Shown here in pieces: positions 18,609 to 48,611 of a DNA stretch of 64,000 nucleotides. A program made the translations under genes and the position numbers. Origin of the DNA: an uncultured Cytophagia bacterium (GTDB lineage: Bacteria; Zhuqueibacterota; Zhuqueibacteria; Oceanimicrobiales; Oceanimicrobiaceae); the NCBI GenBank assembly GCA_964539665.1, contig CAZIKB010000003.1:60062-124061 (forward strand). The letters are read 5' to 3'. The first letter of the stretch is position 1. Each line of letters opens with the position of its first letter. The notes beneath the pieces are model-generated. The model saw only the letters and a program-made list of their open reading frames with translations, had not been told where the DNA came from and made no database searches.

Positions 18609-18698
18609 CTTGAATTACTCCTGGCATGGCCAGGCAGAAAAAAAATATCAACTTCAAACTAAAATCATTTGAAATAATTGGGTAATTTCATTTAAAAA

Positions 18699-21548: not shown

Positions 21549-21551
21549 ATT

Positions 21552-22610: not shown

Positions 22611-22611
22611 T

Positions 22612-25600
22612 ATGGAAAATCTCCCCAAAAAAGTTATCGTATTAGGAAGCTCTGCGCTCAAAATTGGTGAAGCTGGAGAATTCGATTATTCTGGCAGCCA
22701 GGCTATTAAAGCTTTAAAGGAAACCGGAATCCAAACCGTTTTGGTGAATCCAAATATTGCTACAATTCAAACCTCGGAACATTTAGCAGATCAGGTGTAC
22801 TTTTTACCTGTGAATGCATATTTTACTGAGAAGATTATTGAGAAAGAAAAACCAGATGGGATTTTGCTTGCTTTCGGTGGTCAAACAGCGCTCAACTGTG
22901 GGCTTGAATTGTCAAAGAATGGCGTATTTGAAAAGCATAATCTAAGAATATTAGGTAGTCCTCTGAAAGCCATTCAAGAAACAGAAGATCGTGGTCTATT
23001 TGTAAAACGCTTACGGGAAATTGAAGTTGATGTACCTCGAAGCGTGGCGGTTAATTCTACTGAGGAAGCTTTAGCAACGGCTCGAAAAATCGGCTACCCT
23101 GTGATGATTCGAATTGCTTTTGCTTTGGGCGGGCTTGGTTCAGGGATTTGTGTCTCTGAAAACGAGATCAGGGAATTGGCGGATAAGGCTTTTTCATTTA
23201 CCAACCAGATACTTATTGAGGAATACCTGCAGGGCTGGAAAGAAGTCGAATACGAAGTTGTTCGTGATGTTTATAATAATTGCATCACTGTTTGTAATAT
23301 GGAGAATTTTGATCCCTTGGGCATACATACTGGCGAAAGTATTGTAGTTGCACCGAGCCAAACCTTGAATAACCATGAATATCATCGACTCCGTGAAATC
23401 TCTATTCGGGTTGTTCGACACATTGGAATTGTCGGAGAATGTAATGTGCAGTTTGCATTAAATCCTCTGACCGGGGATTACCAGGTCATAGAAGTGAATG
23501 CACGTTTGTCACGAAGCTCTGCCCTGGCCTCAAAAGCAACGGGCTATCCATTGGCATTCATTGCAGCAAAACTGGCCTTAGGATTTGGTTTGACTGATTT
23601 AAAGAATTCGATTACCCAAACAACCATGGCCTGTTTTGAACCAGCTTTAGATTATGTTGTGGTGAAAATTCCTCGCTGGGATTTAAAGAAGTTTCACCGG
23701 GTTTCCACAAGGATTGGCTCTGGCATGAAATCTGTGGGCGAAGTCATGGCCATCGGGCGGTCGTTTGAAGAGGCATTGCAAAAAGCTTTAAGAATGCTGG
23801 ACATTGGGGTTTCAGGTCTGACCGGTAATGACCATCTGGAATTTGAAGATGTGAAAACCGAATTAACTCATCCCACGGACGAGCGCATTTTCGCGATTGT
23901 AAGTGCGTTCAAAGCGGGTATCTCAATTGAAGAAGTCCATAAATTAACCAACATTGACAACTGGTTTCTTTATAAGATCCAACATATACTTCAAGTTGAG
24001 AAGTTGCTTAATGGATATAAAAGTGGTATTTGTCCAAGAGGCACATTATTAGAGGCTAAACGCGCTGGCTTTTCTGATTGTCAGATTGCAAAAAATTTAG
24101 ATTGCCATGATGACGATGTTCGGCGTATGCGCAAGAATTATGGTATCAAGCCTTGCGTGAAACAAATCGACACCCTGGCTGCTGAATATCCGGCACAAAC
24201 AAATTATCTCTACCTAACCTACAATGGCGAGTCTGATGATATCGATTTTCAAATAACAAATTCTGTGATTGTACTGGGTTCCGGAGTGTACCGAATCGGC
24301 AGCTCTGTCGAGTTTGATTGGTGCTGCGTTAACGCAGTTATGACTTTAAGAGAACTGGGCTACAAAACCATTCTTATAAATTATAATCCGGAAACTGTAA
24401 GTACGGACTATGATGAATGTGACCGATTGTATTTTGATGAACTTAGCTTTGAAACCATTTTTGATATTTATGAAAAAGAAAAACCACATGGAGTGATCAT
24501 TTCCATGGGAGGGCAAATTCCAAACAATTTAGCCATGAAATTTCATCAGGCAGGCATGAATGTTTTGGGAACGACCTCTCAAAATATTGATAATGCAGAG
24601 GACCGACACAAATTTTCAACTTTATTAGATACGCTAAAAATTGATCAGCCTGAATGGAACGAACTGGTTTCGACAGAGGAGGCAAAAGCGTTTGCCAAAA
24701 AAGTTAATTACCCGGTATTGGTTCGTCCTTCTTATGTTTTAAGCGGCGCTGCTATGGGAGTGGCCTCGACTGATGTGGAGCTTACCAAGCTGTTAGAAAG
24801 AGCCGCGGAAATTTCCTCTGAATTTCCTGTCGTTATCAGTAAATTTTTGGAGAACGCCAAAGAAATTGAATTTGATGGAGTGGCTCAAAAAGGTGAGTTA
24901 ATTGTTTATGCAATTTCAGAACATGTGGAGAACGCCGGGGTGCATTCCGGCGATGCTACATTGGTTTTACCGCCTCAAAGAACTTACATCGAAACCATTC
25001 GACAGGTGCGCAGCATTTCCAGAAAAATAGCCCAGGCTCTGCAAATAACCGGCCCGTTTAATATGCAATTCATCGCTAAAAATAACGATGTGAAAGTAAT
25101 AGAATGCAATTTAAGAGCTTCACGAAGTTTTCCTTTCGTTTCAAAGGTTGTTAAGGTTAATTTTATTGATATCGCCACTCGTGTTCTTTTAGGTGAAATC
25201 GTGCCTAAAAGTGATAAATCATTTATGGAGCTCGAATATGTTGGAGTTAAAGCTCCGCATTTTTCCTTTACCCGTCTACAGGGTGCGGATCCTACCCTGG
25301 GCGTTGAAATGGCCTCAACAGGCGAAGTAGGCTGCCTGGGAGATGACTTTGAAGAAGCGTTTCTTAAAGCGTTAATTTCAGTTGGATTTAAATTACCTGT
25401 CCGTTCAATTTTAATTTCGACTGGTCCCCTTGAAAACAAAGCCGAATTTATTTCCAGCGCAAAAATACTCATGGATTTAGGTGTAAGAATATATTCCACT
25501 AAAGGAACTTCAGAATTTATGAAGCAATACGGAATAGACACCGATATTCTATATTGGCCTCTGGAGAAAAAGAGCCCGAATGTTTTAGAATATTTAAGTA

Positions 25601-25806
25601 ATAATAAAATTGATTTGGTAATTAATATTCCAAAAAATTATCAGGAAGAAGAACTGACTAACGATTATATCATTCGTCGCCATGCAGTAGATTATGGCAT
25701 TCCATTGATTACTAATTTGCAGCTTGCCAGACGATTCGTTGAGGCTATGTCAAGAAAAGCGCCATCTGAATTACAAATCAAAAGTTGGGGGGATTACGAG
25801 TTATGA
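22612..25806 (+). CDS. carB: Carbamoyl-phosphate synthase large subunit
   Basis: The 1064 aa protein has duplicated ATP-grasp halves, an oligomerisation domain and an MGS-like domain. It begins 1 nt after the carA stop. Confidence 0.9.
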   Translation: MENLPKKVIVLGSSALKIGEAGEFDYSGSQAIKALKETGIQTVLVNPNIATIQTSEHLADQVYFLPVNAYFTEKIIEKEKPDGILLAFGGQTALNCGLELSKNGVFEKHNLRILGSPLKAIQETEDRGLFVKRLREIEVDVPRSVAVNSTEEALATARKIGYPVMIRIAFALGGLGSGICVSENEIRELADKAFSFTNQILIEEYLQGWKEVEYEVVRDVYNNCITVCNMENFDPLGIHTGESIVVAPSQTLNNHEYHRLREISIRVVRHIGIVGECNVQFALNPLTGDYQVIEVNARLSRSSALASKATGYPLAFIAAKLALGFGLTDLKNSITQTTMACFEPALDYVVVKIPRWDLKKFHRVSTRIGSGMKSVGEVMAIGRSFEEALQKALRMLDIGVSGLTGNDHLEFEDVKTELTHPTDERIFAIVSAFKAGISIEEVHKLTNIDNWFLYKIQHILQVEKLLNGYKSGICPRGTLLEAKRAGFSDCQIAKNLDCHDDDVRRMRKNYGIKPCVKQIDTLAAEYPAQTNYLYLTYNGESDDIDFQITNSVIVLGSGVYRIGSSVEFDWCCVNAVMTLRELGYKTILINYNPETVSTDYDECDRLYFDELSFETIFDIYEKEKPHGVIISMGGQIPNNLAMKFHQAGMNVLGTTSQNIDNAEDRHKFSTLLDTLKIDQPEWNELVSTEEAKAFAKKVNYPVLVRPSYVLSGAAMGVASTDVELTKLLERAAEISSEFPVVISKFLENAKEIEFDGVAQKGELIVYAISEHVENAGVHSGDATLVLPPQRTYIETIRQVRSISRKIAQALQITGPFNMQFIAKNNDVKVIECNLRASRSFPFVSKVVKVNFIDIATRVLLGEIVPKSDKSFMELEYVGVKAPHFSFTRLQGADPTLGVEMASTGEVGCLGDDFEEAFLKALISVGFKLPVRSILISTGPLENKAEFISSAKILMDLGVRIYSTKGTSEFMKQYGIDTDILYWPLEKKSPNVLEYLSNNKIDLVINIPKNYQEEELTNDYIIRRHAVDYGIPLITNLQLARRFVEAMSRKAPSELQIKSWGDYEL

Positions 25807-27620
25807 ACATATTAGGTATATCTTGTTTTTATCATGACAGCGCCGCCTGTTTAGTGCAGGATGGTGAAATTGTTGCCGCAGCACAGGAAGAAAGGTTTAC
25901 CCGTAAAAAGCATGATCAGGAGTTTCCCCAAAATGCCATTAATTTTTGTCTGGATTATGCAAAAATCGATGTCAAGGATTTAGATTTTGTAGCTTTCTAT
26001 GATAAACCTTTCTTGAAATTCGAGCGAATATTAGAGACCTATCTTGCCTTTACTCCAAAAGGAATTACGTCATTTTTAATGGCCATCCAATTATGGATTA
26101 AGCGAAAGCTCTGGATCCCTGACTTAATTCGCAAAGAACTTGGGTATGATGGGAAAATAATTTATCCGGAACATCATGAATCACATGCTGCGTCGGCATT
26201 TTTCCCCTCTCCATATCAAGAGGCTGCGTTTATAACCATGGACGGCGTCGGCGAATGGACCACCACATCTTACGGTGTTGGCAAAGACAATAAAGTAAGT
26301 ATTCTTGCTGATTTACAATTCCCGCATTCATTAGGATTGTTGTATTCGGCATTCACATACTTTACTGGATTTAGGGTCAATTCAGGGGAATATAAAGTAA
26401 TGGGTTTGGCTCCCTATGGAGAACCAAAGTATGTCCAGGCTATTCGGGACAATTTAATCGATATTAAAGAAGACGGTTCCTATAAAATGAACATGGAATA
26501 TTTCGATTACTGTTCCGGATTAAAGATGACAAATGGCAAGTTTGATAAAATATTTGGCGGACCGCCAAGAAAGCGAGAGTCGAAACTGGCGCAGCGAGAG
26601 ATGGACCTGGCGCGTTCGGTGCAGGAAATTACTGAAGAAATTATGCTTAAAACTGCGCGTCATGTTCATGACGAAACCGGGCAGAAGTATTTGTGCCTGG
26701 CTGGCGGGGTGGCCCTCAATTGTGTTGGCAACGGAAGAATTCTACGAGAAGGTCCATTTGAGGATATCTGGATTCAGCCCGCCGCTGGAGACGCCGGGGG
26801 GGCTCTGGGAGCTGCACTGTTTACCTGGCACCAATATTTAGACAATAATCGACAAAGCAATGGCAGAGATGAGTTACAAAAAGGATCGTATTTAGGCCCT
26901 GAATATAGCGATAATGACATCCAAAGCTTTTTAGACGAACATAAAATACCCTATCAAAAAATAAACTCTGAAGAGTTACCCACAATAATCGCTGATGTAA
27001 TTATTAATGAAAAAGTTGTCGGCTGGTTTCAAGGCAGGATGGAGTTTGGTCCGAGAGCGCTCGGCAGCCGTTCAATTATTGGCGATGCACGTTCGTCTGA
27101 GATGCAAAAAGTTATGAATCTTAAAATCAAATTCAGAGAAAGTTTCAGGCCATTTGCTCCATCGGTTTTAGAAGAGCGGGTGTCCGATTATTTTGAGATT
27201 GACAGAGCAAGCCCATATATGCTTTTGGTTGCGCCTGTAAATAAAAATATACGGCGCAACATGACCGAAGAAGAACAAAATTTATTTGGCATTGATAAAC
27301 TTAATATAGCCCGTTCAGAAATACCGGCCATTACGCACGTTGATTATTCGGCGCGAATTCAGACTGTTGATTGTCGTACCAATCCACTTTATCATAAACT
27401 GATTTCAGCAGTGGAGTCTAAAACTGGATGTCCTGTTATCATCAATACCTCTTTTAATGTGCGTGGCGAACCCATCGTGTGTACACCTTTAGACGCCTAT
27501 AAATGTTTTATGCGCACAGAAATGGATTATCTTTGTATGGGTAATTTTCTTTTGGATAAAAAACAACAGCCAGAGTTTCATGATGATATTAACTGGCAAG
27601 AAAAATATGAGTTAGATTAA
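25785..27620 (+). CDS. NodU/CmcH-family carbamoyltransferase
   Basis: The probable true start is the ATG at 25803, which overlaps the carB stop as ATGA. The protein begins MNILGISCFYHDSAA, has a Kae1/HypF-like N-domain and a carbamoyltransferase C-domain, and is 611 aa long. Confidence 0.85.
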   Translation: MGGLRVMNILGISCFYHDSAACLVQDGEIVAAAQEERFTRKKHDQEFPQNAINFCLDYAKIDVKDLDFVAFYDKPFLKFERILETYLAFTPKGITSFLMAIQLWIKRKLWIPDLIRKELGYDGKIIYPEHHESHAASAFFPSPYQEAAFITMDGVGEWTTTSYGVGKDNKVSILADLQFPHSLGLLYSAFTYFTGFRVNSGEYKVMGLAPYGEPKYVQAIRDNLIDIKEDGSYKMNMEYFDYCSGLKMTNGKFDKIFGGPPRKRESKLAQREMDLARSVQEITEEIMLKTARHVHDETGQKYLCLAGGVALNCVGNGRILREGPFEDIWIQPAAGDAGGALGAALFTWHQYLDNNRQSNGRDELQKGSYLGPEYSDNDIQSFLDEHKIPYQKINSEELPTIIADVIINEKVVGWFQGRMEFGPRALGSRSIIGDARSSEMQKVMNLKIKFRESFRPFAPSVLEERVSDYFEIDRASPYMLLVAPVNKNIRRNMTEEEQNLFGIDKLNIARSEIPAITHVDYSARIQTVDCRTNPLYHKLISAVESKTGCPVIINTSFNVRGEPIVCTPLDAYKCFMRTEMDYLCMGNFLLDKKQQPEFHDDINWQEKYELD

Positions 27621-27621
27621 T

Positions 27622-28059
27622 ATGAATTTAATCGATGACATAAAGTTTGAAATAACAAAGTTAAAAGAAGATAAGAGCACCTTAAGAAAATTTGCAATTA
27701 CCATAGCATCCGCACTTTGCATTATAGGTGCTTTAGTATTCTTTCTTGGAAGCAGGGCAGAGACCGCATTCTGGTTATGGGGATTTGGATCATCCATTTT
27801 AATATTAGGTATCACGGTTCCCAATGTCTTAAAGCCATTTCACCTATTGTGGATGACATTGGCCTTTGTTTTAGGTTGGTTTGTATCACGCTTAATTCTA
27901 AGCATAGTTTTTTATTTAGTGATGACACCCATCGGATTAGTAATGAAAATCATCGGAAAAGATCTGATAAATCAAAAGCTTGAAAAGAATAATTTATCTT
28001 ACTGGATAAAACGTGACCCGGTAAATAGGAATCCTGAAAGTTATGAAAAATTATTCTAA
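27622..28059 (+). CDS. SxtJ-like small membrane protein
   Basis: The 145 aa protein has 3-4 TM segments and lies immediately downstream of the carbamoyltransferase. Confidence 0.45.
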   Translation: MNLIDDIKFEITKLKEDKSTLRKFAITIASALCIIGALVFFLGSRAETAFWLWGFGSSILILGITVPNVLKPFHLLWMTLAFVLGWFVSRLILSIVFYLVMTPIGLVMKIIGKDLINQKLEKNNLSYWIKRDPVNRNPESYEKLF

Positions 28060-28068
28060 GAGGTTGAC

Positions 28069-28227
28069 ATGAGCAAAATCTCAATAATAAAAGAATTTAG
28101 TCAATTTCTTATTTATAGAAAAAAATGGTGGTTAACTCCAATTGTAATTGTATTATTGCTGCTTGGTGCTTTAATCATTTTGACTGAAGGCAGTGCATTG
28201 GCACCGTTCATTTACACCTTATTTTAG
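28069..28227 (+). CDS. DUF5989/SxtK-like small membrane protein (52 aa); absent from the ORF track because it is under 60 aa
   Basis: Translation is MSKISIIKEFSQFLIYRKKWWLTPIVIVLLLLGALIILTEGSALAPFIYTLF, which matches the RKKWW...APFIYTLF family signature. Confidence 0.55.
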   Translation: MSKISIIKEFSQFLIYRKKWWLTPIVIVLLLLGALIILTEGSALAPFIYTLF

Positions 28228-28380: not shown

Positions 28381-29628
28381 ATGAAAGTTCTCATGATAGA
28401 TAAGTATTTTTTTATTAAAGGTGGCGCAGAACGTTATTTCTTTGAATTGAAGGATATATTAGAGGATAAAGGACATAAAGTGATCCCGTTTTCCATGAAG
28501 CATCCCGACAACTTTGAAACTCCTTATGAAAAATATTTTGTGAATAACATAGACTATGAATTCACTTCAGTCTTTAAAAAAGCGCTCGCTTTTCCACAGA
28601 TTACTGCGCGCATGCTTTATTCATTCCATGCGAAAAATCGACTAGAGAAATTGTTGTCAGACGAAAGGCCAGATATTGCCCACCTTCATATGATTGATCA
28701 TCAGTTGTCTCCATCGATATTACATACGCTTAAAAAGCATAAAATCCCTGTAATACAGACTATTCATCAGTATAAACTTGTATGTCCAAACTATCGTCTG
28801 TATAACCCCACGACAAATAAAATTTGTGAAAAATGCCTGGATGGAAATCTGTTTCATCCAATTATTGAAAAATGTCATAAGAATTCGCAATTGGCCAGCG
28901 CTTTAATTGCGATAGAAAGTTATTTTCATCGATTTATCCGTATTTATGAAAAGAACATTGACATATTTCATACGCCAAGTCGATTCATGGGGGATAAACT
29001 TAAATGCGCCAATATTGGCAATGGAAAAATTCGACATCTTTTTTATTCTTTGAATTTAGATAATTATCAACCCCATATCGAGTTCGATGATTATATCGTC
29101 TATTTTGGGAGATTAGCAATTGAAAAAGGTGTCCTGACGCTTCTCAAAGCTATGCAAAAGCTCAGTCATGTAAAATTGCGGGTTGTTGGTGACGGCCCGG
29201 AACGTAAAACATTGGAAGAGTATGCAAATCTTAATAATTTATCTAATGTTGTTTTTGTTGGTAATAAAGACGGTGACGAATTAAAGTCGATAATTCAAAA
29301 TAGTAAGTTCGTGATTATACCATCAGAATGGTATGATAACTCGCCTCTGGTCATTTATGAAGCATTTGCTTACGGTAAACCTGTTATTGGGGCCCGGATG
29401 GGTGGAATTCCAGAGTTAATTGATCATAAAATAAACGGATTCCATTATGAAGCTGGAAATGATGAAGAATTAGCTGAACACATCAAATATCTCTCTAGCC
29501 AACCATATCTTATTGCTGAATTTGGTAATCAAGCTCGAGCAAAAGCGGAAAGAGAATTTGAACCGGAACATCATTACAAGCAAATGTATGCCTGGTATGA
29601 AGAATTACTTGTTGGTAATGAAAAATAA
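28381..29628 (+). CDS. GT4 glycosyltransferase
   Basis: It is 415 aa with a GT-B fold and the C-domain sequence EWYDNSPLVIYEAFAYGKPVIG. Confidence 0.7.
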   Translation: MKVLMIDKYFFIKGGAERYFFELKDILEDKGHKVIPFSMKHPDNFETPYEKYFVNNIDYEFTSVFKKALAFPQITARMLYSFHAKNRLEKLLSDERPDIAHLHMIDHQLSPSILHTLKKHKIPVIQTIHQYKLVCPNYRLYNPTTNKICEKCLDGNLFHPIIEKCHKNSQLASALIAIESYFHRFIRIYEKNIDIFHTPSRFMGDKLKCANIGNGKIRHLFYSLNLDNYQPHIEFDDYIVYFGRLAIEKGVLTLLKAMQKLSHVKLRVVGDGPERKTLEEYANLNNLSNVVFVGNKDGDELKSIIQNSKFVIIPSEWYDNSPLVIYEAFAYGKPVIGARMGGIPELIDHKINGFHYEAGNDEELAEHIKYLSSQPYLIAEFGNQARAKAEREFEPEHHYKQMYAWYEELLVGNEK

Positions 29629-30785
29629 CCTGTGCAAATCAATCGATTTACATGTTAGGGGTCGCTCAAAAATATAGTTGCTTTCTCGGATTCAAATATC
29701 GCGATAGTAAAATTTCTAATTACAAAAATGCTAAGTGCATAGAGCCGAGGGCAAAGCCGCAAGTTTCACTCTGCGCCACGCGAAAGGTAATGTAATTGCG
29801 TTCAACATGATATTACAATTTATCTACATCACATACGGAATAATGCCGCTGGCTCTTCAACTGTACAGGATCATTTAGTTATATGATGCTAATCTTATAA
29901 ACTTTCCATTTGTTGTAATTACTAAGCTTACTGTTGAGGCTGTCAAAAAAGTTTTCGTTTTCAGCTAACTTCATGCTGAATCCCGAAGGTTTTGAAGTAA
30001 ATTGGGCACTGTTTCAAGCCTTTTGTTGCATTTAAAAGTTGAATTTAGATATCGAATCAAACCTTCGGGAGGTTAGGTTGACGCCAATGCGAAGTGAATT
30101 CAGGAAAGCATATTGATAATTAGTGACTTAGGTGTCTTTCTGATCCGCTCATGATGAAGCCAAATTAATTTATCAACAATCTCGTTAGGCGTATATTGTT
30201 AGTTGACCAATATGTTTTATTCTAAATATTCAACTGCTGCGAACTTAAAGCTAATTTGGCGCAGCATTTGCAACAGTGCTGGTGATTTATTTTGCATTCG
30301 CTTGTAACCTTACTTCATTGTATGCTTTTTAAAAGTTACTTTATTTTTGACCGGTATTATGAAACACATCCTGAACCAGTCGATTCGGTTATTTAAGTTG
30401 TTAATAGTTGAATTTATAAAGTTTAGGATAATACTACAGAGTGTACCTGTGAATTAAAGATATACTATATTTATTGATAGTAAATAATTTTGAAATGCAA
30501 TAAATAATAAGTATTATACAGCATATTATGAGTAAATTGCTCAATATACAACACATGTACATTATTGAAACACTGATCAATTGTCGGGACGTGTTTCAAA
30601 GCTAATTTATTATTAACAAGAAATAATTTATAAGGTGATTTAACACAATATTATTTAGAAAGTAACACCATTGCCGATATATTTCATGAGAAGCGTTCTG
30701 GGTCACATATAAAACAGGTAAATCCTCTACCTTTGCAGAGTGCATTATTTCCAACTGGGCTGAAGATAAAAATACAAAATTTGAA

Positions 30786-32477
30786 ATGCTTCAATTAAAT
30801 AAATATCTAAATTTGAAAAAAAATAATAAAAATAAATCAGTGCAATTAGTGCTTTTTATTACAGTCGTGGGTATAATCTTTCGATTATTTCTAATGCGCT
30901 ATAGATTTGCTGTTGGATTTGATGAAGTTAATTATTTAAAACTTGGAGTGAGCGGTCACTTGAACGGATTATCCGATATTCTACATACTTACTGGTCACC
31001 GCTTCTACCGATGCTAATTTCATTCTCGAGTGGAATTTTTGATAATTATGAATTTGCTGGTCGTATTATATCAATTTTAGCCGGAACATTATTAGTAATT
31101 CCGGTTTATAGCCTGGGCAAATATGTTTATGATGAGAAAATCGGACTGATTGCGGCTGGATTTGTTGCTATTTATCCACCATTGGCTTTTCAAGCAACGA
31201 ATGTCAAGACAGAACCTGTTTATATGCTTTTCGCAATCATTGCAATTATTTTTGGCCTGCGAATGTTAAATCGAGAATCAAAGGGATTTGCCTTTCTTGC
31301 CGGATTATTTTCAGGTTTAGCTTATCTTACCCATCCCCAGGGTATGGGCTTTTGTATTGTGATTGCGTTTTGGATTTTATTTAGTACCTTGTTCAGGCTC
31401 TATGCATTTCGATTTCGACGAATGATTGTGCTGTTCGCTATTTTGAGTTTTGGTTTTATCATTATTGCTGCTCCTTATTTAATTTATTTGAAAAAGGCAA
31501 CCGGAGGCTGGACTTTAAGCGCCAAAGGCGCTGCAAATCAGCAAATGGAGGCTCACGTGAGTGAAGAAGGGCAAGATGCGTTTCGAGCGCTGGATGCAAG
31601 TAACAAAAACGTGCTCTTCGATCAAATTTTTCATAAAGGTGATTTCTTGGATGCAACCAATGATGGAACGGATCCTGTGACAGTAGTCAGGCTCGGCCCG
31701 CTCTTTTTCAAGTATATTGAGAACCTGGCAAACATGTTAAAAGGTACAATTCCGGAATTTTTTACTACCCTGCCGATGATTCTTTTGGGAATCGGTTTGT
31801 TTGGAGAAAGATGGCAATCCCAACAAGGCAAAATCATCCTGTATCTTGTAAGCTTCATTGTGTTTTTTTGGTTAATATTAATTCCATTGTTTCATCTCAA
31901 TTTAAGGTACCTTTCACCACTCTGGCCGCTCTGTGCAATATGGATTGCAAAAGGCGCCAGCCACATATATGGTTGGTTAGCATCTTATATGCCGTTGGTA
32001 AACTTTTCGAAGAGATTTGATAACAAATTAAATTCTAATACTGTTGCAGTGGTTATTATTCTTGCAGTTTTTTTTAGTTTGACTTTTCTGCCGGAATTGG
32101 GACGTGTTATATCAAGACGTTCAGATACGAGAGAATACTGGGGTGATGCTGTAGATCAAAAAAAAGCAGGCCTTTGGATAAAAGAAAAAATGCCTGGAGA
32201 TAAGTCAATTATGAGTTATAATCATGCGGTAAGTTTTTATGCCGGCAGCTATGATATTAGCCAATCTATTGAAATTCCTGATAATGGGATAGAACGCATT
32301 TTGAAATACGCAAAGTATAGAAAAGTAAATTTACTTGTTCTAAATGAAAGATATAAAATAGTTTTTCCCAGAATCAATTATTTATTAAGTTCTGAAAATG
32401 TCCCGGATGGACTTGAATTAGTTTATCAGGATATGGATCGTTCAGGACTAAAAACCGTGATATATAAAATATTGTAA
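30786..32477 (+). CDS. GT-C membrane glycosyltransferase (PMT/ArnT-like, second copy)
   Basis: The 563 aa protein has a DE motif in its first loop (GFDEVNYL), more than 10 TM helices and a C-terminal soluble domain. Confidence 0.5.
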   Translation: MLQLNKYLNLKKNNKNKSVQLVLFITVVGIIFRLFLMRYRFAVGFDEVNYLKLGVSGHLNGLSDILHTYWSPLLPMLISFSSGIFDNYEFAGRIISILAGTLLVIPVYSLGKYVYDEKIGLIAAGFVAIYPPLAFQATNVKTEPVYMLFAIIAIIFGLRMLNRESKGFAFLAGLFSGLAYLTHPQGMGFCIVIAFWILFSTLFRLYAFRFRRMIVLFAILSFGFIIIAAPYLIYLKKATGGWTLSAKGAANQQMEAHVSEEGQDAFRALDASNKNVLFDQIFHKGDFLDATNDGTDPVTVVRLGPLFFKYIENLANMLKGTIPEFFTTLPMILLGIGLFGERWQSQQGKIILYLVSFIVFFWLILIPLFHLNLRYLSPLWPLCAIWIAKGASHIYGWLASYMPLVNFSKRFDNKLNSNTVAVVIILAVFFSLTFLPELGRVISRRSDTREYWGDAVDQKKAGLWIKEKMPGDKSIMSYNHAVSFYAGSYDISQSIEIPDNGIERILKYAKYRKVNLLVLNERYKIVFPRINYLLSSENVPDGLELVYQDMDRSGLKTVIYKIL

Positions 32478-32484
32478 ATTAAAA

Positions 32485-33882
32485 ATGACAGGTTTAATAT
32501 TTAATTCAGAAATTGTTTATTTTGGGCTCGTAGTGGTCATTTTTACCCTGGGATTTATAATGTTCTCTAATCACGCTTATTTTCTTTTGGCGGCAGGCAC
32601 AATATCAGCGGCCTTTCAGGGTGGTCTGTGGATTCCGTCATTCAATACAGATTTCTATTTGAGCTTTATTATCTTCAGCATTCTTTTAGTCTATTCCTAT
32701 GTAAATCCTAAAAGCAATAATGGAATACGGTATAATAACAAAGTTATGATCTTTGCCTGGCTTGGTGTATTTCTTTTTTCGATATTTGCCATCACAAAGG
32801 CACTGGATGTAAGCAAGGCACGCCAGGCAATTATCTTGTTTTCTATCGATTTAGTGATATTTTTTGCAATATGGCGAACTGTTCGAACTCCCAAGGATGT
32901 TCAATTTTTTATTGCCTGCCTAATAGCAGCTTTAATTGTTCAGAGTATGATTGGTATGCTGCAATACAAAATCCCACTTTTTAAAATTGGCATTATTGAT
33001 CAGGTTCTGGCAGAGGGTAAAACAAAATGGTACCGCGCTAAAGGTACGTTTTATCATCCCAATGGATTTGGAATGTATATAATGATTATGCTGCCCATTG
33101 CGTACCGTGGCTTAATTAACGCATACATGCAAAAAAATATAAAGTGGCGTTTTTATTGTATCGTGGGATTGACATTTGGAATTGTTGCGCTGCTGGCCTC
33201 ATTTAATCGTGGTTCCTGGGCGGGTTTATTTGTTGGATTCTTTATAATGTGTATGGTAGATTTTTTTCGTCGAAAGAAAAAAATTACCAAAGTACTTTCA
33301 AATTTAATTGTTGCTGCCTTTATCTTTGGTACCATAATTTCGATTAAATTTGCCCCGGTTGTGTTAGAACGAATATATGGGGCCGATGCTGATGAACAAG
33401 TTGAAAACAGATCTTCTCAGATGGTTGAGGCAACTGAATTGATTAAGCAAAATCCATTTATAGGAGTAGGGTATGGCAATGATCTATTTTATGCCGCACA
33501 GATATTTGTGCATAACCTTTATTTATTGATCGCTGCTGAAGCTGGCATTCCTGGATTGATCTTTTTCTTATGGTTTTTGATTGAATTATTTAGGGAAACC
33601 TGGAGGACAAGCGGATCGCAAATTATCTATTGTGCTAATTACTCTCGTGGTTTTATCGCATCACTAATAGGTTTTTGTATTTCTTCCTGGGTAGGTCCCG
33701 ATTTTTGGATACATTATGGAGTTCAATCATATTTCTGGCTTTTAGTTAGTCTTGTGTTTGTTGTAGGGCGGTTAGATCGAAATTTAATATATAAACAAAA
33801 AATGATGCAAAAGCGACAAAGAGAGACGGTTGCACACAATAACATACCAGTTTTGATGAGTACAAGCGGATATCCTAAATAA
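32485..33882 (+). CDS. O-antigen ligase/polymerase-like membrane protein (Wzy_C domain)
   Basis: The 465 aa protein has 10-12 TM helices and a large periplasmic loop with SFNRGSWAG and H...R motifs typical of WaaL/Wzy. Confidence 0.55.
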   Translation: MTGLIFNSEIVYFGLVVVIFTLGFIMFSNHAYFLLAAGTISAAFQGGLWIPSFNTDFYLSFIIFSILLVYSYVNPKSNNGIRYNNKVMIFAWLGVFLFSIFAITKALDVSKARQAIILFSIDLVIFFAIWRTVRTPKDVQFFIACLIAALIVQSMIGMLQYKIPLFKIGIIDQVLAEGKTKWYRAKGTFYHPNGFGMYIMIMLPIAYRGLINAYMQKNIKWRFYCIVGLTFGIVALLASFNRGSWAGLFVGFFIMCMVDFFRRKKKITKVLSNLIVAAFIFGTIISIKFAPVVLERIYGADADEQVENRSSQMVEATELIKQNPFIGVGYGNDLFYAAQIFVHNLYLLIAAEAGIPGLIFFLWFLIELFRETWRTSGSQIIYCANYSRGFIASLIGFCISSWVGPDFWIHYGVQSYFWLLVSLVFVVGRLDRNLIYKQKMMQKRQRETVAHNNIPVLMSTSGYPK

Positions 33883-33946: not shown

Positions 33947-35746
33947 ATGAAGGAGTACAGTATGGCAATTCTCTCTTTTAGTAATGAGCATGAAGCTGGT
34001 GCGGCAATTATCAGGCATGGTAAAATTGTTGCCGCGATTAATGAGGAACGACTTACCCGGGTAAAAAATCAAGATGGATTCCCAAATCTATCAATTGCTT
34101 ACGTACTTCAGAAATCTAACTTGCGACCAAATGATATTAATCATGTTATTATACCTGAAATTAGTAAAATACGCGATATTTTTACGAATGTTCTTGTGCA
34201 ATATCCACTAAATGTATTCTATAAATCACCTGGAATGCAGTGCAGTTTTACAGATTATCTACGTCAATTACTATTATCAGGTTATATTTTAGTTAGAACC
34301 TATGCGCGAGTTCTACTTGACCATCGAAGAGATGAAAAACTGCTGCGAAAGATGTTCCCGAGGGCTGAATTTCACCGATTGAACCATCATCTATCTCATG
34401 CCGCTTCAACTTTTTTCACCAGTGGTTTTGAAAAAGCAATGATTATTACAGCCGATTATTGGGGAGACTTTACAACAACTATGGTTTCAATTGGCGAAGG
34501 TAAGAAAATTCGTCCTGTGGAACAAAGCTATTATCCGCATTCGTTAGGACATTACTACGCCAGTTTAACTAATTGGCTTGGCTTTCGTCCGAACCGGCAT
34601 GAAGGTAAAATCCTTGGTCTGGCAGCAATGGGCGATCCTGAATCTCCGGTTTATGATATGATCAAGGATTTATTGATTTGTGATGGACTTAAAATAAAAG
34701 CGCCCTTCATGATTGGTAAAATGTGGCATAAAAATGTTCGATGGTTCAAGAACTGTTTAATGCGCCAAATGGTTGATAATTATTCACGTGAAGATATATC
34801 TGCTGCATTCCAGCGCAGGTTTGAGGAAGTATTTGTTGAATTGGTTAAAAATGCGGTGAAGCAGTTTGGTCTGAAAAATATAGCATTAGCTGGTGGTGCG
34901 TTTGCAAATGTTAAGCTTAACCAAAATATTTTAGAAGTTGACGGAATAGAAAATATTTATATTTATCCGAACATGAGCGATGGCGGTATTTCTCAAGGCG
35001 CAGCATTATACTATGATATTCAATCAAATGGCAGTATGCCGTCGTTACTGACTAATGTTTATTTCGGTCCAAGTTATACCGACGATCAAATCGAGGCGGA
35101 GCTCAAGGAAAGGAATATAAAATATCACAGACATGAAAACATCGAAAAAGAAATAGCTAAATTAATTGCTGAAAGCAATGTGGTGGCACGATTCGCCGGG
35201 GCTATGGAACTCGGTCCACGAGCATTAGGCAATCGTTCCATTCTATACTCCGCGACGGATCCGAAAGTTAATAAATGGCTCAATGCCCGATTGAAGCGAA
35301 CTGAATTTATGCCATTTGCACCCGTGACCCTCGAAGAATATGCTGATAAATGCTACAAAAATTTCAATGGCGCTAAAATAGCATCCAAGTTTATGGTGAT
35401 TACCTTTGACTGCACCGATTTTATGAAAGAAAAATCTCCGGCAACAGTTCATGTGGATGGCACAGCAAGACCGCAAGTTATAAATGAAAAAGACAATCCT
35501 AGCTATTATAATATTCTAAAAGAGTATCATAAACTTACCGGCATTCCAACCCTGGTGAATACCAGTTTTAATATGCACGAAGAACCGATAGTATGTACTC
35601 CTCAGGATGCAATTCGCTCATTTTTACAGGGTACTCTGGATTACCTGGCAATTGGAAATTTCTTAGTGAAAAATAAGGATAAGGAATCACCTGAGAAAGG
35701 ACATGTTGATGAATTAAAGGAAGTCCCTTTCAAAGAATTAGTCTGA
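33947..35746 (+). CDS. NodU/CmcH-family carbamoyltransferase (second copy)
   Basis: It begins MAILSFSNEHEAGAAIIRHGKIV, has the same two-domain architecture as the ORF at 25803, and is 599 aa long. Confidence 0.85.
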   Translation: MKEYSMAILSFSNEHEAGAAIIRHGKIVAAINEERLTRVKNQDGFPNLSIAYVLQKSNLRPNDINHVIIPEISKIRDIFTNVLVQYPLNVFYKSPGMQCSFTDYLRQLLLSGYILVRTYARVLLDHRRDEKLLRKMFPRAEFHRLNHHLSHAASTFFTSGFEKAMIITADYWGDFTTTMVSIGEGKKIRPVEQSYYPHSLGHYYASLTNWLGFRPNRHEGKILGLAAMGDPESPVYDMIKDLLICDGLKIKAPFMIGKMWHKNVRWFKNCLMRQMVDNYSREDISAAFQRRFEEVFVELVKNAVKQFGLKNIALAGGAFANVKLNQNILEVDGIENIYIYPNMSDGGISQGAALYYDIQSNGSMPSLLTNVYFGPSYTDDQIEAELKERNIKYHRHENIEKEIAKLIAESNVVARFAGAMELGPRALGNRSILYSATDPKVNKWLNARLKRTEFMPFAPVTLEEYADKCYKNFNGAKIASKFMVITFDCTDFMKEKSPATVHVDGTARPQVINEKDNPSYYNILKEYHKLTGIPTLVNTSFNMHEEPIVCTPQDAIRSFLQGTLDYLAIGNFLVKNKDKESPEKGHVDELKEVPFKELV

Positions 35747-35761
35747 GAGATTTCGATTCGA

Positions 35762-37219
35762 TTGTGTGACTTTATTATGAGCCGAGAGAACAAGTTTTTT
35801 AAAAATACACTCGCAATTTCGTTAGCACATGGACTGCAACCTTTTCTTTCTTTAGTATTATCGCTGGCAATAGCTCGACTGCTGGGCAAGGAAAGTTTTG
35901 GAGTCTATGCAACTATATTTTATTTGATTGCGATTTTCGAGATGATAAGTTCTTTAGGGGTGAAAACGGTTTTAACTCGCGAAGTAGCAAAAGATAAATC
36001 ATCTGCTTCAAATTACATCACAAGCAGTGTCATAGTTACGTTCGCGTTATCCATACTGGCCATTATTTTACTACATATTACTGTTCGGTCTATCAAGTAT
36101 GATGATATAATTTTGCAACCAGTTTACATCCTGGCCTGGTCTCTGATTGCTTCTGGAATTGCAGATTCTTTAGAAGGAATACTGCAAGGTTTGGAGAAAA
36201 TTCAAGCCATCGCGAGCGCCTGGATGATTGAGCAGATACTACGTGTGGCCGTAAGTCTCTTTATTATCTACAATGGATATGGCATAATTGAATTGGCGCT
36301 GGTTTATGCTGTGATACGCTATGTTTACCCTGTGCTTCTTTATTGGATGTTAATGAGGACGACAAAAAAAATAAGGTGGCAGCCGGACTTAAATTTAGTA
36401 AAAAAATTATTTTCAGCAACAAGAGTTTTTGGCCCAATAATGATTTTTGTTTCTGTATACTGGCGAATAGATTCTATTATATTAGCTAAGGTTTTAGATC
36501 TTAAGGATGTAGGCATTTATAATGCCGGCAATAAACTTTTTTGGTTTTTTATTATTCTGGTACGAAGTTTCTTTGCATCTTTTTATCCACTTGTTTCTGA
36601 TATATTTGCTAATCGAGCTTCACGGTTTGAAATTGTATGCAAGAAATCTATATTCTATTTATTGGCCTTACTGGTACCGATTGCTGTATCTATTACACTG
36701 TTTTCCGAACAAATTATAACAACATTGTGGGGCCAACAATACATTGGAGCGGGCACTGTTTTACAAATATTAATTTGGTGTACATTGCCATACGCTGTGT
36801 CCAAAGTGTTCGCGTATGCCTTTATCTCGAGCAATTTGCAGCGTTTTGATCTTTGGGTAAACATTATAGGGGTGGCTTTTAAAGTTACAATATTTACAAT
36901 AATGATAAATTTATATGGAGTTGTAGGTGGAGCCTGGGCAAATTTGATTGGCATGTTTTTTGTAGTGGTGATACAGTTGCCATTTGTTATGAATTATTTA
37001 TTTAAGTTTGAACTCAGTTCTATGTTAATGCCTTGTGTAAAACTTTTAATTGCTGTTTTTTCGATGTTTGTAATAGGAAAATTGTTCCCACATGTTAATT
37101 TCATTTTGATGGGAGTCGTAATAAATGTTATTTATTTTGCAACTTTATTTCTAATAAAAGTATTCAATGATGAAGATAAGTTACTTTTTCGTAAGTTATT
37201 ACATCTTAGCAGGACATAG
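35762..37219 (+). CDS. MOP/Wzx-family polysaccharide flippase (second copy)
   Basis: The 485 aa protein has about 14 TM helices. Confidence 0.6.
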   Translation: MCDFIMSRENKFFKNTLAISLAHGLQPFLSLVLSLAIARLLGKESFGVYATIFYLIAIFEMISSLGVKTVLTREVAKDKSSASNYITSSVIVTFALSILAIILLHITVRSIKYDDIILQPVYILAWSLIASGIADSLEGILQGLEKIQAIASAWMIEQILRVAVSLFIIYNGYGIIELALVYAVIRYVYPVLLYWMLMRTTKKIRWQPDLNLVKKLFSATRVFGPIMIFVSVYWRIDSIILAKVLDLKDVGIYNAGNKLFWFFIILVRSFFASFYPLVSDIFANRASRFEIVCKKSIFYLLALLVPIAVSITLFSEQIITTLWGQQYIGAGTVLQILIWCTLPYAVSKVFAYAFISSNLQRFDLWVNIIGVAFKVTIFTIMINLYGVVGGAWANLIGMFFVVVIQLPFVMNYLFKFELSSMLMPCVKLLIAVFSMFVIGKLFPHVNFILMGVVINVIYFATLFLIKVFNDEDKLLFRKLLHLSRT

Positions 37220-37248: not shown

Positions 37249-38628
37249 ATGTCTTTTAAAAAACCAAATATAATTTTAATTATGATAGATTGCGGGCGGG
37301 CTGATCATTTTTCTATTTATAATGATAGTAAAAATACGACTCCAAATTTAAAAAAAATAGCTGCGGAAAGCATGGTTTACAATAATGCTATCTCACCTGC
37401 CGGTTGGACCTTGCCAACCCATTCATCAATATTTACTGGTGTTTATCCCTCGCAACACGGCGCCCACAATGAAAATCATCAACTCTCAAATGAATACCCA
37501 ACGCTTGCAGAATTGCTTGTTGAACAAGGGTACAAGACTTTTGGAATCTGTACTATAGATTGGCTAAGTCAGGCTACCGGAGTAATTAGAGGATTCCAGG
37601 AATTTGATAACTTACATTTTAGTAAGTCAAAATTAATATTGAAAAGAATGTTACAATACCCCATAATTGGCGGGAAGGACTGCTGGGGATATGAAACCAA
37701 CAGAAAAGCGAAAAAATGGCTAAAACAAAATGATTCAGGCAATCCATTTTTTATGTATCTCCATTATAATGAATTGCATCTGCCTTACAACATACCTGAA
37801 AAAATATTGAAGAATTTTTTACCGGAAGATGTGACGGTTGCTAAGGCATTAAAAATTAATCAAGATGCCAAAAAATATTATGCCGGTATTGCAAAAATGA
37901 GTGCAGAGGATTTTAAAATACATAAAGCATTGTATGACGCCGGATTGAAATACACTGACGATTTAATAGGGCAATTGATTGATTTCTTAAGAAAGCAAGA
38001 TATTCTTGATAACACAATTCTTGTCATCACAAGTGACCACGGTGAAAGCTTAGGCGAACACGGACATTTTGACCATTATTACGTCCTTTATGAATCCCTG
38101 CTCCATGTGCCTTTAATGGTTAGATATTTCCCTGTTTTTGGCTCGGGAAAGTCAGATGCGCTTGTGCAAACTATTGATCTATATCCAACTTTATTACAAT
38201 TAGCCGGTGTACCAATTGAAAAATATGAACATCACGCTGCGTTAACCCTTCCCCCGGTTGGAAAAAATAAAGGGCGAGAATATGCGTATGCTGAACGCTT
38301 TCAGGATTTAAAAGGTTTAAAGGAAAGCTTCAAAAATCATGATTTATCACATTTGGAAAAATATGAGCAGGAACGTCTGACTGTTATTAGAGGCGAGCGA
38401 TATAAGCTTATTTATTCTATGCAAGGTCGTCATGAATTGTTCGATTTACACAATGATCCCCGCGAAGAAGAAAATATATTATTAAAAGAACCGGGAATAG
38501 CAGAAATCATGATGGATAAACTAAAAGAGTGGCAATCATCATTTCCATTAAAACAAACAGAAGGAGAAGAAGCATATTTTGATAAAGAGGCTGTTGAACG
38601 TCTAAAAGCATTGGGATATCTTGGTTAA
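37249..38628 (+). CDS. Sulfatase-family (alkaline phosphatase superfamily) protein with Thr at the nucleophile position and a C-terminal ...ERLKALGYLG tail
   Basis: It has a metal-binding IDCGRADH motif, a nucleophile region AGWTLPTHSSIFTGVYP (T-x-P-T-H instead of C-x-P-S-R) and a SDHGESLGEHGH motif. The C-terminus reads VERLKALGYLG. Confidence 0.65.
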   Translation: MSFKKPNIILIMIDCGRADHFSIYNDSKNTTPNLKKIAAESMVYNNAISPAGWTLPTHSSIFTGVYPSQHGAHNENHQLSNEYPTLAELLVEQGYKTFGICTIDWLSQATGVIRGFQEFDNLHFSKSKLILKRMLQYPIIGGKDCWGYETNRKAKKWLKQNDSGNPFFMYLHYNELHLPYNIPEKILKNFLPEDVTVAKALKINQDAKKYYAGIAKMSAEDFKIHKALYDAGLKYTDDLIGQLIDFLRKQDILDNTILVITSDHGESLGEHGHFDHYYVLYESLLHVPLMVRYFPVFGSGKSDALVQTIDLYPTLLQLAGVPIEKYEHHAALTLPPVGKNKGREYAYAERFQDLKGLKESFKNHDLSHLEKYEQERLTVIRGERYKLIYSMQGRHELFDLHNDPREEENILLKEPGIAEIMMDKLKEWQSSFPLKQTEGEEAYFDKEAVERLKALGYLG

Positions 38629-38684
38629 TTAATTATTACTTATCGACTAATCGATCCATGTATTAAAATTTAGCGAAGGTTAAA

Positions 38685-43731: not shown

Positions 43732-43767
43732 GTTCAATAATTTGAATATTTAAAAGGAGATAACATA

Positions 43768-48590: not shown

Positions 48591-48611
48591 AAATCGAATT
48601 ATTGGGAGCAA

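What the first reader, a model, noticed from the sequence alone, without database searches (positions are those of the whole stretch)
29629..30785. 1.16-kb non-coding island with multiple inverted repeats splitting the locus
Genes elsewhere in the locus overlap or sit less than 60 bp apart, yet no ORF of 60 aa or more exists on either strand here. The island is AT-rich. It contains an 11 to 14-bp long-range inverted repeat (TCCCGAAGGTTTTGA at 29981 and TCAAACCTTCGGGA at 30057) enclosing about 66 nt. Other inverted repeats are TGCTGCG at 30233 with CGCAGCA at 30262, and TTGAAACAC at 30567 with GTGTTTCAA at 30592. It could hold the promoter or leader of the downstream GT-C-Wzy-carbamoyltransferase-Wzx operon, a structured ncRNA, or the scar of an excised mobile element or decayed gene.
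Basis: seen in the sequence. Interest (0 to 1): 0.5.

Follow-up and report, generated by a model that had tools for sequence, protein, structure and literature searches.

The report
Decayed flippase gene in spacer
The 1.16-kb "non-coding island" holds the eroded leftover of an old Wzx flippase gene, stranded where part of a polysaccharide gene cluster was swapped for a different cassette, followed by an ordinary AT-rich upstream region; it is a familiar kind of evolutionary scar, not a new RNA or regulatory device.

Summary
The gap is real. No ORF of 60 aa or more lies in 29629-30785 on either strand. The metagenome contig L002 carries it with no differences. It is not unique in the window, it is only mildly AT-rich (33% vs 38% GC), and only the 12-bp inverted repeat is unusual (about 2% of shuffles).

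Rfam, tRNA, coding-potential, six-frame Pfam and six-frame big-database searches were all negative. The decisive evidence is comparative. In KSB1/Calditrichota relatives the orthologous GT4 gene is usually followed directly by a Wzx flippase gene. A DNA profile of eight of those Wzx genes, scanned over the whole window, has its best hit in the island (30217-30285, + strand, E 1.5e-5, 14.8 bits). 2000 shuffles reached at most 1.9 bits.

The hit encodes the conserved GAAFAT motif and is interrupted by stop codons. A collinear extension follows it (p 0.009). Genes left of the island are 72-85% identical to relative L010. Wzy and Wzx to the right are only 23-29% identical, so they are replacements.

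Verdict: a Wzx pseudogene relic at a cassette-swap junction, plus about 230 nt of AT-rich upstream region for GT-C. The first 570 nt remain unassigned. Ordinary; low interest.

The parts
28381..29628 (+). GT4 glycosyltransferase gene, the upstream flank. It is the orthologue of the GT4 gene that precedes Wzx in relatives.
   Evidence: Pfam Glycos_transf_1/Glyco_transf_4. 72% aa identity to L010 GT4 and 60-62% to L001, L007 and L009. The DNA profile of relatives' GT4 covers 28381-29609, E 1.9e-248.
29629..30785 (.). The island: 1157 nt with no ORF of 60 aa or more.
   Evidence: No differences from L002 within the island.
29629..30200 (+). Unassigned 5' part, near coding-level GC (36-37%). It is possibly the further-decayed middle of the same Wzx relic, but this is not demonstrated.
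   Evidence: No coding signal. No Pfam or big-database hit. A weak collinear nhmmer hit pairs 29956-30016 with model 812-863, E 0.2. The band test gives p 0.14.
29981..30070 (.). 12-bp perfect inverted repeat (TCCCGAAGGTTT / AAACCTTCGGGA) around 66 nt. No function is assigned.
   Evidence: 2.3% of shuffles; z -2.2 / -1.75; no other copy in the window.
30201..30338 (+). Detectable core of the Wzx (MOP-family flippase) pseudogene relic. It reads ..CFILNIQLLRT*S*FGAAFATVLVIYFAFA.. and matches the conserved GAA(F/I)AT region, residues ~364-407 of ~480.
   Evidence: nhmmer with relatives-only Wzx DNA profile: 30217-30285, 14.8 bits, E 1.5e-5 over the whole window. 2000 shuffles reached at most 1.9 bits. 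Protein HMMs scored 8.5 bits (0/1000 shuffles as high) and 7.8 bits (1/1000). tblastx hits fall at the same Wzx position in L001, L003, L004, L009, L010 and L011. Alignment shown.
30400..30459 (+). Collinear 3' continuation of the relic (model ~1293-1352). By extrapolation the old stop codon would fall near 30554.
   Evidence: Diagonal scan: third-best 60-nt window of ~2500 diagonals, 4 nt off the main diagonal. Band test with the main hit excluded gives p 0.009.
30555..30785 (+). Residual AT-rich (~27% GC) intergenic DNA upstream of GT-C. A promoter or leader for the downstream cassette is inferred, not shown.
   Evidence: Composition. The Calditrichaceae relative L001 has a 470-nt, 29% GC gap before its GT-C. 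The best sigma-70-like site, 30490-30517 (10/12), is not above shuffle expectation.
30786..32477 (+). GT-C (PMT_2/ArnT-like) glycosyltransferase gene, first gene right of the island.
   Evidence: Pfam PF13231. 54-59% identity to KSB1/Calditrichota homologues.
35762..37219 (+). Wzx2, the intact but non-orthologous flippase that presumably took over the relic's role.
   Evidence: Pfam Polysacc_synt. Only 22-24% identical to relatives' Wzx, which are 49-66% identical to each other. The relatives' DNA profile hits it more weakly (E 0.2) than it hits the island.

Best explanation
The island is a recombination scar in a mosaic polysaccharide-biosynthesis cluster of an uncultured KSB1/Calditrichota-like bacterium.

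Its detectable content is the heavily decayed relic of the ancestral Wzx flippase gene that used to follow the GT4 gene, as it still does in most relatives. The traceable 3' part runs from about 30200 to about 30550 on the + strand. A different processing cassette (a Wzy, a second carbamoyltransferase and a new Wzx, with a GT-C in front) now sits to the right. That made the old flippase redundant, and it eroded through stops, frameshifts and deletions of roughly 500 nt or more at its 5' side.

The last ~230 nt (27% GC) are ordinary upstream DNA of GT-C. Because 1.1 kb of untranslated RNA would expose read-through transcripts to Rho termination, the downstream cassette most likely has its own promoter there.

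Shown: the gap, the Wzx homology, the synteny and the identity break. Inferred: the order of events, that 29629-30200 belongs to the same relic, and the promoter. The inverted repeats need no function.
For: 1. In six of the eight distinct relatives where the position can be read (L001, L005, L006, L007, L010, L011), GT4 is followed directly by Wzx on the same strand. L009 has GT4-cbmT-SxtJ-DUF5989-Wzx, and L003/L004 have a GT4 homologue followed by cbmT-GDSL-SxtJ-DUF5989-Wzx.
2. A DNA profile of eight relatives' Wzx genes, with no window sequence in it, was scanned over all 64 kb on both strands. Its top hit is in the island: 30217-30285, +, model 1106-1175 of 1443, 14.8 bits, E 1.5e-5. That beats its hits to the window's two intact flippases (5.0 and 1.1 bits). 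The next non-flippase hit scores -2.3 bits.
3. Empirical nulls: 2000 dinucleotide shuffles of the island reached at most 1.9 bits. In about 150 kb of relatives' loci only true flippase paralogues exceed 5 bits.
4. Protein HMMs hit the same place and frame, with 0/1000 and 1/1000 shuffles scoring as high. The motif FGAAFATV sits right after two in-frame stops.
5. A collinear extension, independent of the main hit, gives p 0.009.
6. Identity break, window vs L010: carB 85, cbmT1 78, DUF5989 79, GT4 72 on the left; GT-C 54, Wzy 27, Wzx2 23, cbmT2 30 on the right. L010 vs the more distant L001 still gives Wzy 43 and Wzx 49.
7. DNA profiles or single-sequence models of ten other gene families from relatives leave no significant trace in the island.
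8. No RNA family, tRNA, coding signal, Pfam domain or protein homologue was found.
9. Precedent: non-functional wzy remnants lie in apparent intergenic gaps of Salmonella O-antigen clusters after functional replacement (PMC3715488).
Against: - Only about 70-130 nt give a significant match. Identity to single relatives over the 84-nt core is 51-68%, so the case rests on profile statistics and synteny.
- The first ~570 nt show no significant Wzx similarity (p 0.14) and could have another origin.
- The hypothesis arose after seeing weak BLAST hits, although the relatives-only whole-window scan and the shuffles are independent checks.
- Bacteria usually delete dead DNA, so 1.1 kb of old junk is somewhat surprising.
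- No close relative (over 60% aa identity for GT-C) is available to show an intact gene at this site.
- L002 may come from the same sample, so it is not independent support.
- No expression data exist for the promoter inference.
Confidence: 0.75

Rival explanations
1. The island is purely a regulatory spacer, holding the terminator of the upstream unit plus the promoter and a long 5' leader of the GT-C-Wzy-carbamoyltransferase-Wzx operon. On this view the Wzx-like stretch is coincidental.
For: The 3' ~480 nt are 27% GC. L001 has a 470-nt, 29% GC gap before its GT-C. One 10/12 sigma-70-like site lies at 30490-30517 and one weak terminator-like hairpin at 30262-30281.
Against: Counts of promoter-like and terminator-like sites equal shuffle expectation. 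There is no ops/JUMPStart element and no enrichment of TAnnTTTG. In other relatives the GT-C upstream gap is 0-265 nt, and 58 nt in L010, the relative whose gene order is closest, so a long leader is not conserved. This view does not account for the E 1.5e-5 Wzx match. A promoter in the last part is compatible with the best explanation.
Confidence: 0.1
2. The island encodes a structured non-coding RNA or cis-regulatory RNA, for example one built on the 12-bp stem at 29981-30070.
For: A 12-bp perfect stem occurs in only 2.3% of shuffles. The 120-nt window around it folds with z -2.8 / -3.6.
Against: Rfam gave no hit at gathering score in the whole window and only chance hits (E of 2 or more) in the region. 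All other windows fold no better than shuffles, and coding flanks reach similar z-scores. About one such repeat is expected per 64 kb. No homologous non-coding sequence exists in any relative, so there is no covariation support.
Confidence: 0.04
3. The island is the scar of an excised or decayed mobile element (IS or MITE), with the inverted repeats as terminal repeats.
For: It sits at a junction where gene order differs from relatives. Inverted repeats are present. In L007 a DUF559 endonuclease-like gene sits at the analogous carB-to-GT-C junction.
Against: No transposase, integrase or recombinase similarity appears in any frame or among the 50 predicted genes of the window scanned against Pfam. 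There is no match in the plasmid or phage collections. The repeat arm is unique in the window, and no target-site duplication flanks 29981-30070. The weak offsets of the Wzx hits imply a net deletion, not an insertion, across the repeat.
Confidence: 0.04
4. The island is structureless junk of unknown origin, and the Wzx match is a statistical accident.
For: The match is short, and most of the island has no detectable similarity to anything.
Against: E 1.5e-5 over the whole window, with 0 of 2000 shuffles above 1.9 bits. The strand is right and the position is right after GT4. There is an independent collinear extension and protein-level agreement.
Confidence: 0.07

Closest known systems
Non-functional wzy remnants between wbaV and wbaU in Salmonella enterica group B1/D1 O-antigen gene clusters (Reeves et al. 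2013, PMC3715488)
   Same: A polysaccharide-processing gene is reduced to an unannotated remnant inside an apparent intergenic gap of a co-directional cluster after another gene took over its function. The remnants differ in extent through serial deletions. Junctions between blocks of different divergence mark past recombination.
   Different: Here the relic is a wzx-type flippase, not wzy. The replacing gene lies within the same cluster. Decay is much deeper, with only ~70-130 nt significantly recognisable. No IS or H-repeat remnant was found. The host is an uncultured KSB1/Calditrichota-like bacterium known only from metagenomes.
Wzx / MOP-superfamily O-unit flippases (Pfam Polysacc_synt PF01943, Polysacc_synt_3 PF13440)
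   Same: The relic matches the conserved C-terminal GAA(F/I)AT region of the orthologous group found next to GT4 in relatives.
   Different: It is not a gene. The relic frame 30213-30554 has 12 stops, every frame of the island has 25-31 stops, there is no Pfam hit, and the 5' third or more is missing.
JUMPStart/ops-containing leaders of long polysaccharide operons (RfaH-dependent antitermination), from general knowledge
   Same: A long untranslated stretch lies upstream of a long polysaccharide operon.
   Different: No ops (GGCGGTAG) element is present, and no conserved leader exists in relatives.
Invertible promoters of Bacteroides capsule loci, from general knowledge
   Same: Inverted repeats bracket a short segment upstream of a polysaccharide operon in an FCB-group-related bacterium.
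   Different: The arms are only 12 bp around 66 nt. No recombinase gene is in the window. Only one orientation was seen in the two assemblies.

Membership tests
Wzx (MOP-superfamily, Polysacc_synt) flippase gene, as a pseudogene relic | Significant sequence similarity to the family or orthologous group | tested here: met
   nhmmer E 1.5e-5, 14.8 bits at 30217-30285, against a shuffle maximum of 1.9 bits. Protein HMMs scored 7.8-8.5 bits, with at most 1 of 1000 shuffles as high.
Wzx (MOP-superfamily, Polysacc_synt) flippase gene, as a pseudogene relic | Conserved genomic position and strand relative to orthologous neighbours | tested here: met
   It lies downstream of GT4 on the + strand, as in L001, L005, L006, L007, L010 and L011.
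Wzx (MOP-superfamily, Polysacc_synt) flippase gene, as a pseudogene relic | Loss of reading-frame integrity, which makes it a pseudogene rather than a gene | tested here: met
   Two stops lie inside the matched stretch and 12 stops in 30213-30554. There is no coding-potential signal.
Wzx (MOP-superfamily, Polysacc_synt) flippase gene, as a pseudogene relic | Collinear similarity over most of the gene length | tested here: inconclusive
   The 3' extension is significant (p 0.009). The 5' part is not (p 0.14). About 500 nt of the gene cannot be accommodated at all.
Wzx (MOP-superfamily, Polysacc_synt) flippase gene, as a pseudogene relic | Match to the curated Pfam model at gathering score | tested here: not met
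   A six-frame Pfam scan at E up to 10 returned no Polysacc_synt hit. This is expected for a short, stop-riddled fragment.
Any described RNA family (Rfam 15) | Covariance-model score at or above the gathering threshold | tested here: not met
   0 hits in the whole window. The best sub-threshold hits have E of 2 or more.
Insertion sequence / MITE | Terminal inverted repeats with target-site duplication, a transposase (for IS), and multiple copies | tested here: not met
   No transposase homology. The arm is single-copy in the window. No target-site duplication is visible. Copy number in the whole genome could not be tested.
JUMPStart/ops antitermination leader | ops element GGCGGTAG in the leader | tested here: not met
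   The pattern is absent on both strands of 29500-30900.
Invertible promoter (site-specific recombinase controlled) | Both orientations present in the population, and a cognate recombinase | tested here: inconclusive
   The two assemblies show the same orientation, and they may not be independent. No recombinase domain was found among the 50 predicted window genes scanned against Pfam. Read-level data are not available.
Sigma-70-type promoter / intrinsic terminator | Consensus matches in excess of chance | tested here: not met
   11 promoter-like sites against 8.8 +/- 2.5 in shuffles, and 1 terminator-like site against 0.9. The promoter type of this phylum is unknown.

The most novel reading that the evidence does not exclude
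The unassigned 5' ~570 nt have been co-opted from dead gene material into a cis-acting RNA element. This part includes the 12-bp-stem, 66-nt-loop hairpin at 29981-30070. The element could be a processing or stability site, or a Rho-utilisation/antitermination leader. It would couple or insulate expression of the ancestral left block and the newly acquired right cassette.
Probability: 0.05. Interest if true: 0.35.

Novelty: new member of a known kind. Interest (0 to 1): 0.12.

Why it matters
The main value is annotation hygiene and locus history.
- The island shows that this large carbamoylation- and sulfation-associated polysaccharide cluster is a mosaic. Its processing cassette (Wzy, Wzx and a second carbamoyltransferase, with a GT-C in front) was replaced, and the stranded original flippase marks the junction.
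- That fits the long-standing picture of serotype-like diversification by cassette exchange, and suggests it also operates in an uncultured KSB1/Calditrichota-like lineage.
- It warns against reading long ORF-free gaps with inverted repeats as ncRNAs.
- It opens no new mechanistic question.

Tried and rejected
- Rfam, at gathering score on the whole window and at E up to 10 on the region: only chance hits.
- tRNA/tmRNA scan: none.
- blastn against the plasmid and phage collections: no match.
- Self-similarity within the window and direct repeats: nothing beyond chance.
- Hexamer coding potential trained on the window's genes: no frame scores as coding.
- blastx against all ORFs of the window and of L001: no remnant of a local gene, only the weak Wzx lead.
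- Six-frame Pfam scan: nothing.
- Six-frame concatenate against 5.8 billion proteins: nothing at E up to 10. The word index limits sensitivity for a decayed fragment.
- Exact-protein look-ups of the two flanking genes: not on record.
- ops/JUMPStart and Bacteroidetes-type TAnnTTTG motifs: absent or not enriched.
- Comparison of the GT-C upstream regions of seven loci: no shared motif with the island.
- An apparent resemblance of the peptide just after the GT4 stop (PVQINRFTC*GS...) to Wzx N-termini (MQISRVTSNS...) was checked by DNA alignment and by HMM. It was not supported and was dropped.
- DNA profiles or single-sequence models of GT-C, Wzy, AsnB, FrhB, carbamoyltransferase, GDSL and four unnamed neighbour genes: nothing significant in the island. 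The best was AsnB on the minus strand, 0.7 bits, E 0.008, before correction for 11 families.
- MITE reading of the 12-bp repeat: single copy, no target-site duplication, and offsets argue against an insertion.

Full report
**1. The observation**

The interval 29629-30785 lies between a GT4 glycosyltransferase gene (28381-29628) and a GT-C/PMT_2 glycosyltransferase gene (30786-32477). No ORF of 60 aa or more exists on either strand; the longest is 50 aa.

Two arms are exactly where stated and four are 1-2 nt off. The best repeat has a perfect 12-bp core at 29981-29992 / 30059-30070 with 66 nt between the arms.

Metagenome contig VAPA010775240.1 (L002) is 99.95% identical over 29193-33063. Both differences fall inside GT-C, so the island itself shows none. 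It is unlikely to be an assembly artefact, though L002 may come from the same sample.

**2. How unusual is it?** Less than claimed.

- The window has other sizeable gaps of 343, 209, 256, 156, 124 and 593 nt, plus one of 1098 nt.
- GC is 33.2% against 38.0% for the window. Only the last ~480 nt are strongly AT-rich (~27%). The first ~670 nt sit at 36-37%, close to coding DNA and above the 15-30% of the short true spacers.
- A perfect inverted repeat of 9 nt or more with a loop of 100 nt or less occurs in 59% of dinucleotide shuffles of the island. One of 12 nt or more occurs in 2.3%, roughly one expected per 64 kb.
- Sliding-window folding (120 nt, both strands) gives z-scores indistinguishable from the flanking genes, apart from the window that holds the 12-bp stem.

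**3. Negative searches**

- Rfam: nothing at gathering score in the whole window, and only E of 2 or more in the region.
- No tRNA or tmRNA.
- No similarity to plasmids or phages.
- No repeated copy of any part of the island in the window.
- A hexamer coding score trained on the window's own genes stays at background in all six frames.
- Six-frame translations hit no Pfam family. A six-frame concatenate found nothing at E up to 10 among 5.8 billion proteins.
- No ops element and no enrichment of Bacteroidetes-type -7 motifs.
- Promoter-like and terminator-like sites are at shuffle level.

**4. Context**

The whole window is one co-directional polysaccharide cluster. It carries its own carAB, two carbamoyltransferases, SxtJ/DUF5989, several GT2, GT4 and GT-C enzymes, two intact Wzx-type flippases, a Wzy, PAPS-synthesis genes and many sulfatase/phosphodiesterase-family genes. 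No recombinase or transposase is present.

The nearest homologues of GT-C are 54-59% identical. They come from candidate division KSB1 and Calditrichaceae metagenome-assembled genomes.

Ten related loci were fetched.
- The recurring order is carA-carB-(gap)-GT-C-Wzy-GT4-Wzx.
- GT4 is followed directly by Wzx in six of the eight distinct loci where this can be read.
- L010 is the most similar arrangement: GT-carA-carB-carbamoyltransferase-SxtJ-DUF5989-[58 nt]-GT-C-Wzy-GT4-Wzx.
- The window instead reads ...carbamoyltransferase-SxtJ-DUF5989-[153 nt]-GT4-[island]-GT-C-Wzy-carbamoyltransferase2-Wzx2.
- The gap before GT-C in relatives ranges from an overlap to 470 nt, so a 1.16-kb spacer is lineage-specific. 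None of these loci shares sequence with the island's non-coding DNA.

**5. The lead and its test**

Several very weak BLAST hits converged on one spot. Island nt 591-683 matched the Wzx genes of L001, L003, L004 and L006 at the same relative position, residues ~360-400. L009, L010 and L011 matched at the same position later. I tested this in ways that do not depend on those hits.

a. A DNA profile was built only from eight relatives' Wzx genes and scanned over the full window on both strands.
- Its best hit is in the island: 30217-30285, +, model 1106-1175 of 1443, 14.8 bits, E 1.5e-5.
- That is stronger than its hits to the window's own intact flippases (5.0 and 1.1 bits).
- The next non-flippase hit scores -2.3 bits.

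b. 2000 dinucleotide shuffles of the island never exceeded 1.9 bits. In about 150 kb of the relatives' loci only genuine flippase paralogues exceeded 5 bits.

c. Two protein HMMs (10 sequences, then 62 orthologues collected) place their best hit at the same site and frame.
- They scored 8.5 and 7.8 bits, with 0/1000 and 1/1000 shuffles as high.
- The stretch reads CFILNIQLLRT*S*FGAAFATVLVIYFAFA. It aligns with the conserved ...YslvGaAiAtl... segment, with two in-frame stops just before the motif.

d. With the main hit masked, the best ungapped 60-nt match within 40 nt either side of the main diagonal, downstream of the hit, is better than 99.1% of shuffles. It pairs island 772 with model 1293. 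Upstream of the hit the same test gives p 0.14.

e. DNA profiles or single-sequence models of ten other gene families from the relatives leave no significant trace.

I conclude that the island contains a relic of a Wzx gene in the orientation and position expected from synteny. Extrapolating the diagonal, the old stop codon would fall near 30554. The island's first base would correspond to about nt 500 of the gene, so at least ~500 nt of the 5' end have been deleted.

**6. Why the gene died**

| Gene | Side of island | Window vs L010 (aa %) | L010 vs L001 (aa %) |
|---|---|---|---|
| carB | left | 85 | 77 |
| carbamoyltransferase 1 | left | 78 | not compared |
| DUF5989 | left | 79 | not compared |
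| GT4 | left | 72 | 60 |
| GT-C | right | 54 | 54 |
| Wzy | right | 27 | 43 |
| Wzx (window Wzx2) | right | 23 | 49 |
| carbamoyltransferase 2 | right | 30 | not compared |

L001 is the more distant relative, and L010 still shares 43% (Wzy) and 49% (Wzx) with it. The window's Wzy and Wzx2 are therefore non-orthologous replacements. GT-C is ambiguous. The island sits exactly at the break.

The simplest history is that a different processing cassette was recombined in to the right of GT4-Wzx. The original flippase became redundant and decayed. The exact sequence of rearrangements, including the loss of an ancestral GT-C-Wzy between DUF5989 and GT4, is inferred and not reconstructed.

**7. What the rest does**

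The last ~230 nt (27% GC) resemble the AT-rich 470-nt gap before GT-C in the Calditrichaceae relative L001 in composition only. Long untranslated stretches inside operons generally provoke Rho-dependent polarity; this is established general knowledge. I therefore infer an independent promoter for the downstream cassette in this part. Nothing here demonstrates it.

The first ~570 nt (29629-30200) remain unassigned. They may be more of the same relic, since a weak collinear hit appears at E 0.2, or other debris.

The 12-bp repeat needs no function at its observed rarity. The TGCTGCG/CGCAGCA repeat overlaps the Gly-Ala-Ala codons of the relic.

**8. Comparison with what is known**

Remnants of O-unit processing genes in apparent intergenic gaps of polysaccharide clusters are well documented. 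One example is the wzy remnants between wbaV and wbaU in Salmonella groups B1 and D1, functionally replaced by another wzy and differing by serial deletions (PMC3715488).

The present case is a further example in an uncultured lineage. It involves wzx rather than wzy, and decay is much deeper. It fails membership tests for Rfam families, IS/MITE, ops leaders and invertible promoters.

**9. Verdict**

- Novelty is a new member of a known kind.
- Interest is low (0.12).
- Confidence that the island contains a Wzx relic is about 0.85.
- Confidence that relic plus ordinary upstream DNA explains the whole island is about 0.75.

Noticed in passing
window 28069-28227 (+): A 52-aa ORF is a DUF5989 gene (Pfam E 2.7e-24; 79% identical to the L010 homologue that follows SxtJ). 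The apparent 321-nt gap after SxtJ is therefore only 153 nt. A 60-aa ORF cut-off misses this gene.
   Followed up: yes
window 47514-48611: This is a second ~1.1-kb gap. 48291-48590 is a DUF2061 membrane-protein gene. 47519-47689 reads, in another frame, like the C-terminal ~56 aa of the window's sulfatases (blastx E 1.4e-4 against 37249-38625). The sulfatase gene 45855-47513 may therefore be frameshifted or truncated, which would be another decaying gene in this cluster.
   Followed up: partly
window 20436-28227 and 33947-35746: The polysaccharide cluster carries its own carbamoyl-phosphate synthase (carA, carB), two only 32%-identical carbamoyltransferases, and SxtJ/DUF5989 genes. This gene set recurs in KSB1/Calditrichota relatives and suggests a carbamoylated polysaccharide.
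   Followed up: partly
window 54799-59529: An ATP-sulfurylase is fused to a type I phosphodiesterase/sulfatase-like domain (878 aa). It is followed by an APS kinase and another phosphodiesterase-family protein. Several more sulfatase/phosphodiesterase-family genes lie at 37249-52782. Together these suggest sulfation chemistry linked to the same cluster.
   Followed up: no
L002 position ~2547, window 31739: The otherwise identical metagenome contig lacks one A in an A-run inside GT-C. That explains why its gene was called as a 330-aa fragment (P0005). It is either a sequencing error or a strain-level frameshift.
   Followed up: partly
L005 7736-8000, L006 569-778, L007 7787-8000: In higher-GC relatives the gap before GT-C holds G/C-rich palindromes (CCCCCTT..AAGGGGG, GTTCCCAA..TTGGGAAC) that look like REP-type or terminator hairpins. 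L007 also has a DUF559 endonuclease-like gene inserted between carB and GT-C. This junction appears to be a recurrent site of change.
   Followed up: no
window 61276-62389: Two ORFs overlap by 248 nt: a GT2 at 61276-62013 and a DUF2304 at 61766-62389. The Pfam match of the second begins at residue 84, so its real start is probably further downstream.
   Followed up: no
window 17172-20384: A second Wzx-like flippase (17172-18608) is followed by a second GT-C/PMT_2 gene (18699-20384), just upstream of the GT(DUF1972)-carAB block. The same Polysacc_synt-PMT_2-GT-carAB order occurs in L004.
   Followed up: no
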